NCBI RefSeq assembly: GCF_003334255.1
Contig: NZ_QOWU01000019.1
From: Escherichia coli
GTDB lineage: Bacteria; Pseudomonadota; Gammaproteobacteria; Enterobacterales; Enterobacteriaceae
Length of the DNA stretch: 64,000 bases
Reading direction: 5' to 3' (one strand)
A program made the position numbers and the translations under genes. Of this stretch, positions 38,606-38,817 are shown piece after piece (position 1 is the first letter of the stretch; each line of letters opens with the position of its first letter). A model generated the notes under the pieces. It was not told the DNA's origin and searched no databases. It saw only the letters and a list, made by a program, of their open reading frames with translations.

Positions 38606-38673
38606 ACAATAGCTCTCTTTTTTTGAATATTGTTTTCTAAGTGACAATTAGCTTGCGACGTGCCGCAAGAAAG

Positions 38674-38695
38674 ATCAACCATCTGGTTGGTTGAT
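38674..38695. promoter_or_regulatory. Candidate TetR-family operator (8-6-8 inverted repeat) in the divergent promoter region
   Basis: Perfect inverted repeat ATCAACCA-n6-TGGTTGAT between the divergently transcribed SDR-led operon and the TetR gene; a second palindrome AAGATAgttATCTT lies at 38782-38796. Confidence 0.35.
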
Positions 38696-38817
38696 ATGCG
38701 ATAGTGATCACAGGACATTTGATAACTTGATGAAAGTACAAGTTTTTATCCTTTTTACTGGAGCTTCTAATTAATCGGGTTAAGATAGTTATCTTGAAGA
38801 GGTCGTGGGGAAGCGTT

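What the first reader, a model, noticed from the sequence alone, without database searches (positions are those of the whole stretch)
38606..38817. Candidate TetR operators in the divergent promoter of the TRAP/CoA operon
A perfect 8-6-8 inverted repeat (ATCAACCA-n6-TGGTTGAT, 38674-38695) and a second palindrome (AAGATAgttATCTT, 38782-38796, overlapping the regulator's 5' region) lie between the divergent SDR-led operon and the TetR gene. This is the classic layout for ligand-responsive autoregulation. The sites would be handles for finding the inducer, and thus the pathway substrate.
Basis: seen in the sequence. Interest (0 to 1): 0.3.

Follow-up and report, generated by a model that had tools for sequence, protein, structure and literature searches.

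The report
TetR (YtfA) operator, CRP-flanked promoter
The first inverted repeat is very probably the real DNA-binding site of the neighbouring TetR-type regulator YtfA, controlling an uncharacterised E. coli nutrient-uptake operon, whereas the second palindrome is a strain-specific coincidence lying on the regulator's own promoter; this is an ordinary kind of genetic switch.

Summary
The window is E. coli chromosome. The locus is an accessory island between rplI and ytfB, and the TetR gene is ytfA. It is the most conserved block of the 212-bp intergenic region in 17 orthologous loci (regulator identity 57-99%). Related palindromes (consensus ATCAACCA-NN-TGGTTGAT) lie beside about 40%-identical homologues in Alphaproteobacteria that have unrelated neighbouring genes. 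So the motif follows the regulator, not the operon.

A positionally conserved but weak promoter (TTGATC-17-CAnnnT) places IR1 over the -35 and CRP near -61.5. The inferred mechanism is a repressor gated by ligand plus cAMP-CRP activation.

The second palindrome is really 6-2-6 (38782-38795). It overlaps the conserved -10 of the ytfA promoter, and its right arm is lost in other E. coli alleles and other genera, so it is not an operator. Autoregulation is unproven, because the conserved ytfA -10 lies about 100 bp from IR1.

All evidence is computational and no binding data exist. This is a new member of a known kind, of modest interest.

The parts
38674..38695 (.). The core AACCA-N6-TGGTT is at 38677-38692.
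   Evidence: Perfect inverted repeat. The core occurs exactly once in each of 18 gammaproteobacterial loci, always in the SDR/TetR spacer, and in 4 Belnapia loci. It is the most conserved 16-nt window of the spacer, 0.92 against a mean of 0.66. The arms are invariant in the three E. coli alleles.
38674..38691 (.). The overlapping family-type register, ATCAACCA-TC-TGGTTGGT (8-2-8, right arm 7/8). Its core TCAAC-N6-GTTGG is at 38675-38690.
   Evidence: Alphaproteobacterial homologues carry ATCAACCA-NN-TGGTTGAT beside their TetR gene. YCAAC-N6-GTTGR was found 42 times in 42.9 kb around TetR genes (0.16 expected) against 4 times in 369 kb elsewhere.
38697..38712 (.). CRP-like site TGCGA-N6-TCACA (centre 38704.5).
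   Evidence: It matches the consensus at 9 of 10 positions. An 8-10/10 match sits at the same position in all gammaproteobacterial orthologues. It is the next most conserved block after the operator.
38673..38678 (-). Predicted -35 (TTGATC) of the operon promoter, overlapping the promoter-proximal arm of IR1.
   Evidence: It is present in 15 of the 17 orthologous loci (TTGATA in Citrobacter, TTGTTC in L054). In every locus, exactly 17 nt separate it from a YAnnnT hexamer (CAnnnT in 16 loci, TAAGTT in L058). This is the only positionally conserved PWM hit, in the top 10 in 14 of 17 loci, but it ranks only 2-14 of about 900 within each locus.
38650..38655 (-). Predicted weak -10 (CAAGCT; CATTTT, CATCTT or CATCGT in relatives). 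The inferred transcription start is about 38643.
   Evidence: The A at hexamer position 2 and the T at position 6 are invariant alignment columns (A51 and T55). The start site is inferred, not measured.
38781..38786 (+). Predicted -10 of the ytfA promoter (TAAGAT here; TATGAT in other alleles and genera; TGnTATAGT extended -10 in distant orthologues).
   Evidence: T, A and T are invariant at hexamer positions 1, 2 and 6 (T182, A183 and T187). It is among the top three PWM hits in 13 of 17 loci, at 27-38 nt from the ATG.
38782..38795 (.). It is judged a chance, allele-specific repeat and not an operator.
   Evidence: The right arm is not conserved in the ST131 or JL05 alleles, E. whittamii, E. 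albertii, Salmonella or the others. Six-nt-arm repeats are expected by chance.
38691..38719 (+). Candidate second ytfA promoter, TTGATA-17-GACATT, whose -35 is the right arm of IR1. It is the only sequence-based route found here to autoregulation, and the evidence is inconclusive.
   Evidence: It scores 8.4 bits and ties for best plus-strand hit in this allele and ST131. Lelliottia has TTGATT-17-TATTAT at the same position. It is not in the top three of the other lineages scanned, and the aligned hexamers in Citrobacter, Salmonella and JL05 lack the position-2 A.
38818..39465 (+). ytfA, a TetR-family regulator of 215 aa.
   Evidence: Pfam TetR_N (3e-14) and TetR_C_29 (4e-30). RefSeq annotates it as a TetR/AcrR regulator. 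PMC6790063 names ytfA as a variable TetR-family regulator of E. coli.
29682..38605 (-). The regulated 8-gene operon: SDR, AP_endonuc_2 TIM-barrel protein, enoyl-CoA hydratase, fused CoA-transferase, FAD flavoprotein, and TRAP DctQ, DctM and DctP.
   Evidence: NCBIfam assignments and RefSeq annotation. The first five genes are syntenic in every gammaproteobacterial locus long enough to contain them.

Best explanation
IR1 (38674-38695) is the operator of YtfA, the TetR-family regulator encoded next door. Without inducer, a YtfA dimer occupies the site. The site covers the -35 hexamer (TTGATC, 38678-38673 on the minus strand) of a weak promoter for the SDR/CoA/TRAP operon, and it lies between that hexamer and an adjacent CRP site. 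This blocks RNA polymerase. When the ligand binds (the transported acid or a CoA-thioester intermediate), YtfA leaves, and cAMP-CRP at about -61.5 activates the promoter. The operon is therefore on only when substrate is present and preferred sugars are absent.

What is shown: the repeat, its conservation, and its co-occurrence with the regulator family. What is inferred: binding, the repressor mode, the exact promoter and start site, CRP dependence, and the ligand class.

The second palindrome is not an operator. It overlaps the -10 of the ytfA promoter by chance in one E. coli allele.
For: - The repeat is exact.
- AACCA-N6-TGGTT occurs once per locus, always in the SDR/TetR spacer, in 18 gammaproteobacterial loci and in 4 Belnapia loci. 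It is the most conserved 16-mer of the spacer and is invariant in three E. coli alleles that otherwise differ by 15-20%.
- Homologues of about 34-42% identity in Alphaproteobacteria have different neighbours (amidase, SsuA-type ABC transporter, enolase-superfamily dehydratase). They carry ATCAACCA-NN-TGGTTGAT-type palindromes beside the TetR gene. The count is 42 hits against 0.16 expected near TetR genes, and 4 against 1.4 expected elsewhere.
- The DNA-reading helix is conserved in the gammaproteobacterial orthologues and in a Belnapia homologue.
- In Entomohabitans, the operator and CRP site stay 75 nt from the SDR start codon while ytfA is about 350 nt away.
- L058 has a second operator copy directly after the predicted -10, which fits repression.
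- TTGATC-17-CAnnnT is positionally conserved, and CRP then sits at -61.5.
- The CRP-like site is conserved at 8-10 of 10 positions.
- Pfam finds TetR_N and TetR_C_29.
Against: - There are no binding, expression or start-site data; no study of YtfA's operator or ligand was found.
- The consensus promoter scan found nothing in the region. The proposed promoter scores only 4.3 bits in E. coli, rank 14 of 919, so the -35, -61.5 and -41.5 geometry is a model.
- An operator centred near -41.5 is also a position used by activators.
- The two registers cannot be separated by sequence alone.
- One CRP half-site is weak in the distant orthologues, and a single 9/10 match is not unusual in 64 kb (5 found, 2.15 expected).
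- The YCAAC-N6-GTTGR pattern was defined after seeing the sites, so its enrichment statistic is partly circular. The AACCA-N6-TGGTT test was not.
Confidence: 0.75

Rival explanations
1. Both palindromes are YtfA operators, and the layout gives classic TetR-style autoregulation of ytfA together with repression of the operon.
For: The genes are divergent. The second palindrome overlaps the ytfA -10, where a bound protein would repress. A candidate ytfA-strand promoter, TTGATA-17-GACATT, shares IR1's right arm in Escherichia and Lelliottia. In Belnapia the motif sits in a spacer of about 75 bp and could serve both genes.
Against: The second palindrome shares no sequence with IR1. Its right arm is lost in the ST131 and JL05 alleles and in all other genera. 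It is at chance frequency. The conserved ytfA -10 is about 108 bp from the centre of IR1 and more than 300 bp away in Entomohabitans. No CAAC/GTTG half-site was seen in 38760-38817 (read by eye; pattern hits).
Confidence: 0.12
2. IR1 is a protein-binding site, but either YtfA acts there as an activator (the site is centred near -41.5) or a different factor binds it, for example the related RutR, whose box is TTGACCAnnTGGTCAA.
For: The operator centre is at about -41.5 relative to the inferred start site. The family consensus matches the RutR box in 5 of 7 positions per half-site with the same 2-bp spacer (PMC2475637). YtfA and its Belnapia homologue both hit the RutR models weakly.
Against: The motif follows the YtfA-type gene through unrelated contexts. 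The positions that differ from the RutR box (CAAC against GAC) are invariant. A second copy over the predicted start site in L058 fits repression. From general knowledge, most TetR-family members are repressors.
Confidence: 0.08
3. IR1 acts as an RNA hairpin (an intrinsic terminator or attenuator) on the minus strand rather than as a DNA operator.
For: The terminator scan flags it on the minus strand. The RNA folds at -11.7 kcal/mol with a z-score of -2.6.
Against: Only 3 of the 8 stem pairs are G-C, and the downstream T-run is interrupted. There is no co-directional gene upstream, because ytfA diverges. The arms are invariant with no compensatory changes across 17 lineages, while the loop and flanks vary, which is the pattern of a protein site. 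The same motif occurs in alphaproteobacterial spacers with a 2-nt 'loop' that cannot form a hairpin. Rfam finds nothing.
Confidence: 0.03

Closest known systems
TetR/tetO (Tn10) and the general TetR-family repressor-operator switch with divergent regulator and target genes
   Same: A roughly 200-aa regulator with an N-terminal TetR_N helix-turn-helix and a C-terminal ligand domain. The target operon is transcribed divergently. A palindromic operator lies within the shared spacer and overlaps core promoter elements.
   Different: There is one conserved operator, not two tandem tetO sites. The conserved promoter of the regulator is about 100 bp away, so simultaneous autoregulation is not evident. 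A CRP-like site is attached. The ligand is unknown and is not a drug. The operator sequence is unrelated to tetO.
E. coli RutR and its box 5'-TTGACCAnnTGGTCAA-3' (PMC2475637)
   Same: It is a TetR-family regulator of a catabolic pathway. Its 16-bp palindrome has a 2-bp centre and an ACCA-nn-TGGT core, like the family consensus ATCAACCA-nn-TGGTTGAT found here.
   Different: The half-sites differ at two invariant positions (TCAACCA against TTGACCA). The E. coli ytfA site has an extra GGTT that creates a second 8-6-8 register. YtfA scores far below the RutR family cut-off (37.8 bits against 368), so it is not RutR.
Acyl-CoA-sensing TetR regulators (Bacillus FadR/YsiA; KstR2 appears only as an automatic annotation label)
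   Same: Among named families, the longest full-domain similarity is to the Bacillus FadR model NF053878 (E 3.6e-12, residues 14-155). PDB chains named 'Fatty acid metabolism regulator protein' (3whb) also match. The controlled operon makes CoA thioesters through a CoA-transferase and an enoyl-CoA hydratase.
   Different: The scores are far below the family cut-off (46 against 200 bits). The operator differs from my recollection of the FadR and KstR2 boxes, which I did not check here. CoA-thioester sensing is only a lead.
Class I CRP-dependent promoters (lac P1 type, CRP centred at -61.5)
   Same: A TGTGA-N6-TCACA-like site lies one operator-length upstream of a weak -35/-10 pair. It is centred at -61.5 from the inferred start site.
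   Different: A repressor site fills the whole gap between CRP and the -35. At lac, the main operator is at +11. The start site is inferred only.

Membership tests
TetR-family regulator with cognate operator | The regulator has an N-terminal TetR_N helix-turn-helix and a C-terminal TetR-type ligand domain, about 200 aa in total. | tested here: met
   PF00440 (3e-14) and PF17938 TetR_C_29 (4.4e-30); 215 aa.
TetR-family regulator with cognate operator | A palindromic site of about 15-30 bp in the promoter region of the regulated gene. | tested here: met
   A 22-bp perfect 8-6-8 repeat with an overlapping 18-bp 8-2-8 repeat, its centre 79.5 nt from the SDR start codon.
TetR-family regulator with cognate operator | The site is conserved in orthologous loci and co-occurs with the regulator across genomes. 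| tested here: met
   The core is invariant in 17 gammaproteobacterial lineages. Related palindromes lie beside homologues in Alphaproteobacteria with unrelated neighbours.
TetR-family regulator with cognate operator | The regulator binds the site directly and specifically. | not testable with these tools
   This needs EMSA, footprinting, or DAP/ChIP-seq. No published data were found.
TetR-family regulator with cognate operator | A ligand releases the regulator from DNA. | not testable with these tools
   The ligand is unknown. The leads are hexuronate-type relatives of the TRAP binding protein (PMC11668362, PMC7660916) and similarity to FadR-type regulators.
TetR-type autoregulation (operator shared with the regulator's own promoter) | The operator overlaps the promoter of the regulator gene. 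| tested here: inconclusive
   The conserved ytfA -10 (38781-38786) is about 100 bp from IR1. Only a non-conserved candidate, TTGATA-17-GACATT, overlaps IR1. The start site has not been measured.
Second palindrome (38782-38795) as a TetR operator | The palindrome is conserved, or resembles the primary operator. | tested here: not met
   The right arm is absent from other E. coli alleles and other genera. It has no similarity to IR1. It is at chance frequency.
CRP (cAMP receptor protein) class I activated promoter | A match to TGTGA-N6-TCACA. | tested here: met
   9 of 10 in the window, and 8-10 of 10 at the aligned position in all gammaproteobacterial orthologues.
CRP (cAMP receptor protein) class I activated promoter | The site is centred near -61.5 (or -72.5, -82.5, -92.5) from the transcription start. 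| tested here: inconclusive
   It is at -61.5 relative to a start site inferred from the conserved TTGATC-17-CAnnnT. That promoter is weak by PWM, and no start site has been measured.
CRP (cAMP receptor protein) class I activated promoter | Expression depends on cAMP-CRP. | not testable with these tools
   This needs a crp deletion or glucose-repression assays.
Intrinsic (Rho-independent) terminator | A G+C-rich stem followed by a U-run, at the end of a co-directional transcription unit, with the stem kept by compensatory changes. | tested here: not met
   The scan flags it. However, only 3 of 8 pairs are G-C, the T-run is broken, no co-directional gene lies upstream, and the arms are invariant with no covariation.
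RutR regulon site | A match to TTGACCAnnTGGTCAA, with a regulator that scores as RutR. | tested here: not met
   The window site matches about 9 of 14 consensus positions (my own count against the box). YtfA scores 37.8 bits against the RutR cut-off of 368.

The most novel reading that the evidence does not exclude
The YtfA operator is the control point of an undescribed catabolic or reductive pathway. The pathway would import a hexuronate-like sugar acid through a TRAP system and process it as CoA thioesters (CoA-transferase, enoyl-CoA hydratase, SDR, TIM-barrel isomerase, and a fumarate-reductase-like flavoprotein with no close solved relative). YtfA would sense a CoA-thioester intermediate. 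Separately, the 4-bp GGTT duplication that creates two overlapping registers (8-2-8 and 8-6-8) might give two alternative binding modes. Either way, the operator and regulator would be a ready-made biosensor for finding the unknown substrate of an island carried by about 58% of complete E. coli genomes, including ST131 and BL21 but not K-12.
Probability: 0.2. Interest if true: 0.55.

Novelty: new member of a known kind. Interest (0 to 1): 0.3.

Why it matters
The island is in 3134 of 5426 complete E. coli genomes, including ST131, BL21/C41 and ATCC 8739. It is missing from K-12, so standard regulatory databases and K-12 experiments say nothing about it. A defined operator with its family-wide consensus gives several things:
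- a concrete probe for EMSA or reporter screens to find the inducer, and through it the substrate of an operon with an unusual mix of a uronate-type TRAP binding protein and CoA-dependent enzymes;
- a motif for predicting the regulons of TetR_C_29-type regulators in Alpha- and Gammaproteobacteria;
- a corrected regulatory map (one operator plus a CRP site, not two operators), so that experiments do not target the wrong palindrome.

As a mechanism it is a textbook repressor/CRP switch, so the conceptual surprise is small.

Tried and rejected
- The consensus sigma-70 scan of 38500-38900 found no promoter.
- My own PWM scan ranks the proposed operon promoter only 2-14 of about 900 per locus. The top single-locus hits were rejected because their positions are not conserved. 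One of them, TTCATC-16-TGTGAT, uses a CRP half-site as its -10 and has G rather than A at position 2.
- Two other inverted repeats in the spacer, CTTGCG-N6-CGCAAG (38652-38669) and AACTTG-N9-CAAGTT (38724-38744), are not conserved even among E. coli alleles. I treated them as chance.
- Rfam at permissive thresholds gave only a meaningless viral hit with E 0.54.
- The RNA-hairpin/terminator reading was rejected.
- Literature searches for ytfA with TetR, the locus neighbours, RefSeq protein accessions and the enzyme combination found only a survey that lists ytfA as a variable TetR-family gene.
- The single genome-contig scan returned few Enterobacterales, so Salmonella, Citrobacter, Lelliottia, Leminorella and six metagenomic lineages were fetched one by one through exact-protein look-ups.
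- A PDB sequence search gave no relative of the flavoprotein at E<1e-15 and only uncharacterised 'sugar isomerase' relatives of the TIM-barrel protein.
- One extra YCAAC-N6-GTTGR match in the window (62527-62542) is at chance expectation, about 0.24 per 64 kb by my calculation from the per-base rate. I did not pursue it.
- I could not scan a whole genome for further regulon members.

Full report
**Identity of the locus.** The 1.7 kb around the finding is 100% identical to many E. coli chromosomes, such as ATCC 8739. RefSeq annotation of that strain places the region between rplI and ytfB. On the minus strand lies an 8-gene cluster:
- SDR ('3-ketoacyl-ACP reductase', 37814-38605)
- AP_endonuc_2 TIM-barrel 'sugar phosphate isomerase/epimerase' (36962-37804)
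- enoyl-CoA hydratase (36176-36958)
- fused CoA-transferase (34625-36166)
- FAD flavoprotein of 693 aa (32547-34628)
- TRAP DctQ, DctM and DctP (32050-32550, 30706-32007, 29682-30653)

On the plus strand is a 215-aa TetR/AcrR regulator (38818-39465), which has Pfam TetR_N and TetR_C_29. This gene is ytfA. A survey lists it as one of the TetR-family genes present in only some E. coli strains (PMC6790063). In K-12 MG1655, yjfZ replaces the operon, and ytfA is a 5'-truncated pseudogene whose homology resumes at window position 39063. The 212-bp spacer is found in 3134 of 5426 complete E. coli genomes as three alleles: about 100% identity in 1545 genomes, about 85% in 1229, and about 79% in 362.

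**Checking the observation.** ATCAACCA (38674-38681), 6 nt, TGGTTGAT (38688-38695) is a perfect inverted repeat. A nested CAACCA-tc-TGGTTG (38676-38689) lies inside it. In dinucleotide shuffles of the spacer, 3.9% contain a perfect repeat with 8-nt arms, so the repeat alone is only suggestive. The second palindrome is AAGATA-gt-TATCTT, 6-2-6, at 38782-38795. Repeats with 6-nt arms occur about 0.75 times per shuffle. It lies 23 nt upstream of the real ATG at 38818. Only a mechanical TTG ORF start at 38794 touches it.

**Comparative test of IR1.** I collected orthologous loci in two ways. One was a scan of representative genomes. The other was exact-protein look-ups for Salmonella, Leminorella, Lelliottia, Citrobacter and six metagenomic lineages. 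In every gammaproteobacterial locus the regulator (57-99% identical) diverges from the same SDR-TIM-ECH-CoA-transferase-flavoprotein operon.
- In the alignment of 16 spacers, the invariant columns cluster on A-CAACC(A)..(T).GTTGGTT.
- The core AACCA-N6-TGGTT, taken from the E. coli sequence alone, occurs exactly once in each of 18 gammaproteobacterial loci of 3-30 kb, always in that spacer.
- It is the most conserved 16-nt window of the spacer: mean major-allele frequency 0.92 against 0.66 overall, or 0.91 against 0.63 after thinning the Escherichia sequences.
- Among the three E. coli alleles, the arms are invariant while the surrounding sequence differs by 15-20%. Only one spacer base varies (G or A at 38685).
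- The arms never show compensatory changes. That is the signature of a protein-read DNA site rather than an RNA stem.

**The motif belongs to the regulator, not the operon.** The same scan returned homologues of about 34-42% identity from Alphaproteobacteria. None of the E. coli operon genes lie near them. Their neighbours are instead an amidase, SsuA/NitT-type ABC transporter parts and an enolase-superfamily dehydratase. Even so:
- Four Belnapia loci carry ATCCAACCA(TTT/ATC)GGTTGGTTGAT in the roughly 75-bp spacer upstream of the TetR gene.
- All the other alphaproteobacterial loci carry related palindromes upstream of, or just downstream of, the TetR gene. Examples are GGATCAACCAGTTGGTTGATAAT (L010) and AAATCAACCAACTGGTTGATCAG (L011).
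- The shared pattern YCAAC-N6-GTTGR occurs 42 times in 42.9 kb around the TetR genes (0.16 expected) and in 35 of 36 loci. It occurs only 4 times in the other 369 kb (1.4 expected). This pattern was defined after inspecting the sites, so the statistic is partly circular. The AACCA-N6-TGGTT test above is not.
- The helix-turn-helix region is conserved: [13 protein letters not shown] in E. coli and [13 protein letters not shown] in Belnapia.

The family consensus is ATCAACCA-NN-TGGTTGAT. The E. coli site therefore contains two overlapping registers:
- register (a), ATCAACCA-TC-TGGTTGGT, 38674-38691, centre 38682.5

The right side looks like a 4-bp GGTT duplication. Both registers are invariant in the gammaproteobacterial set, and sequence alone cannot say which one is used.

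The closest described operator is the RutR box TTGACCAnnTGGTCAA (PMC2475637). It has the same architecture and matches 5 of 7 bases per half-site. YtfA is far below the RutR family cut-off.

**What surrounds the operator.** Immediately to the right of IR1 is TGCGA-tagtga-TCACA (38697-38712), a 9/10 match to the CRP consensus. An 8-10/10 match sits at the same aligned position in every gammaproteobacterial orthologue and is perfect in Leminorella. It is the next most conserved block after the operator.

Read on the operon strand, 15 of the 17 orthologues have TTGATC, which is the promoter-proximal arm of IR1 (38678-38673); Citrobacter has TTGATA and L054 has TTGTTC. In every locus, exactly 17 nt separate this hexamer from a YAnnnT hexamer (38655-38650). 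That hexamer is CAAGCT here, CATTTT, CATCTT, CATCGT or CATGTT in relatives, and TAAGTT in L058. The A at its position 2 and the T at its position 6 are invariant alignment columns.

Taking a start site about 7 nt downstream (about 38643) gives this geometry:
- IR1 spans -31 to -52
- the CRP site is centred at -61.5, the canonical class I position

This promoter is weak. The consensus scan missed it. My PWM ranks it 14th of 919 in E. coli and 2nd to 12th elsewhere. It is, however, the only candidate whose position is conserved, being in the top ten in 14 of 17 loci. A weak core promoter is what one expects if an activator is required.

Two natural variants support the assignment. In Entomohabitans, IR1 and the CRP site stay 75 nt from the SDR start codon, while extra spacer sequence puts the ytfA start about 350 nt away. 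In L058, a second copy of the motif (AAACCAACC-gaat-GGTTGGTTT on the operon strand) lies directly after the predicted -10, over the expected start site. That is a repressor position.

**The ytfA promoter and the second palindrome.** On the plus strand there is a hexamer with invariant T, A and T at positions 1, 2 and 6. It is TAAGAT at 38781-38786 here, TATGAT in other Escherichia alleles, Salmonella, Citrobacter, Klebsiella, Lelliottia and Leminorella, and TGnTATAGT (extended -10) in the distant orthologues. It keeps a fixed 27-38 nt distance from the ATG and is among the top three PWM hits in 13 of 17 loci. The left arm of the second palindrome is this -10. The right arm (TATCTT) is replaced by CACCAC or CATCAC in the ST131 and JL05 alleles and by unrelated sequence in every other genus. 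It is therefore an allele-specific coincidence and not an operator.

The centre of IR1 is about 108 bp upstream of the inferred ytfA start site, so IR1 would not repress this promoter. A second candidate, TTGATA-17-GACATT (38691-38719), uses IR1's right arm as its -35. It scores as well as any plus-strand hit in this allele, and Lelliottia has TTGATT-17-TATTAT at the same place. It is not in the top three of the other lineages scanned, and the aligned hexamers in Citrobacter, Salmonella and JL05 lack the position-2 A. Autoregulation is therefore possible but not supported by conservation.

**Mechanism proposed.**
- Shown: a conserved palindrome tied to a TetR subfamily; its position between a conserved CRP-like site and the operon; and the lack of conservation of the second palindrome.
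- Inferred: YtfA binds IR1 as a repressor and occludes the -35 and the CRP-polymerase interface; a ligand releases it; cAMP-CRP then activates.
- Ligand leads: the TRAP binding protein's nearest solved relatives (E 1e-71 to 1e-56) are DctP proteins, and papers report several of them bound to, or used as a model for binding, glucuronate or galacturonate (4X8R, 4N8Y, 4N91, 4MHF, 4N15; PMC11668362, PMC7660916). The regulator's longest full-domain similarity to a named family is to the Bacillus FadR model, and a PDB chain named 'Fatty acid metabolism regulator protein' also matches. From my own knowledge, that regulator senses acyl-CoA. So either the sugar acid or a CoA-thioester intermediate is plausible. 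Neither was tested.

**Rivals.**
- An activator role for YtfA, or binding by another factor such as RutR, is not excluded. It is disfavoured because the motif travels with the regulator, because the positions that differ from the RutR box are invariant, and because of the start-site copy in L058.
- An RNA hairpin or terminator (flagged; -11.7 kcal/mol) is disfavoured. There is no upstream co-directional gene and no covariation. The alphaproteobacterial versions have a 2-nt centre that cannot form a hairpin. Rfam finds nothing.

**Novelty and verdict.** No study of YtfA's operator, ligand or operon was found in the searchable literature. RefSeq gives only generic names. The switch itself is a standard TetR repressor with CRP co-control, so it is a new member of a known kind. 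Its value is practical: a precise, family-wide operator consensus and a corrected map for finding the inducer of a widespread E. coli accessory operon that K-12 lacks and that has an odd enzyme mix. Interest is about 0.3.

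Noticed in passing
window 38697-38712: A CRP-like site (TGCGA-N6-TCACA) directly abuts the operator and is conserved in all gammaproteobacterial orthologues. It implies catabolite control of the operon.
   Followed up: yes
window 38723-38732: A further conserved block, ATAAC-N5-TG (invariant A38724, T38731, G38732), lies between the CRP site and the ytfA promoter. It fits no promoter hexamer or known site that I could assign.
   Followed up: partly
window 29682-30653 (TRAP DctP gene): The nearest solved relatives of the binding protein are DctP proteins reported with glucuronate or galacturonate (4x8r, 4n8y, 4n91, 4mhf, and 4n15 as template for a glucuronate binder). A uronate-like substrate is unexpected next to a CoA-transferase, an enoyl-CoA hydratase and a flavoprotein. 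Binding-site residues were not checked.
   Followed up: partly
window 32547-34628: The 693-aa FAD_binding_2 flavoprotein has only partial, weak similarity to fumarate reductase and L-aspartate oxidase families. It has no PDB sequence relative at E<1e-15.
   Followed up: no
window 38606-38817, against L061, L062 and L063: The spacer exists as three E. coli alleles that differ by 15-20%. This points to relaxed constraint outside the operator, CRP site and -10, or to recombination between lineages. Strain Z1322 (L063) looks like a recombinant of alleles 3 and 1 and has a frameshifted ytfA.
   Followed up: partly
L064 (K-12 MG1655 4426628-4428095), against window 39063 onward: In K-12, the whole operon, the operator, the promoters and about the first 81 codons of ytfA are replaced by yjfZ. 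This leaves the annotated ytfA pseudogene.
   Followed up: yes
window 38743-38771: Allele 1 (this window and E69) has a weakened ytfA -10 (TAAGAT instead of TATGAT). It also has an allele-specific alternative, TTTTTA-17-TCTAAT, 15 nt upstream, which scores higher in the PWM scan. This may be a promoter shift.
   Followed up: no
window 29591-29618 and 30677-30694: AAAAACGCCGACCA-tt-GGTCGGCGTTTT lies between rplI and the TRAP binding-protein gene and looks like a bidirectional intrinsic terminator. A G+C-rich hairpin, TGGCGGCA-cc-TGCCGCCA, sits in the 52-nt gap between dctM and dctP. It may be an intercistronic stabiliser or attenuator.
   Followed up: no
window 39449-39465: The ytfA and ytfB coding regions converge and overlap by 17 nt at their 3' ends.
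   Followed up: no
L001 10827-12367 (ATCC 8739 derivative): The CoA-transferase gene is annotated as frameshifted in that record, whereas the window copy is an intact 513-aa ORF. The operon may be decaying in some strains.
   Followed up: no
L058 4243-4264 and 4289-4310: The most distant orthologous locus carries two operator copies. One is CRP-adjacent as in E. coli. The other is a perfect 9-4-9 palindrome over the predicted transcription start.
   Followed up: partly
window 62527-62542: The only other match in the window to the degenerate family pattern YCAAC-N6-GTTGR is TTCAACACCGATGTTGAT. It is at chance expectation, and its context was not examined beyond listing short ORFs.
   Followed up: no
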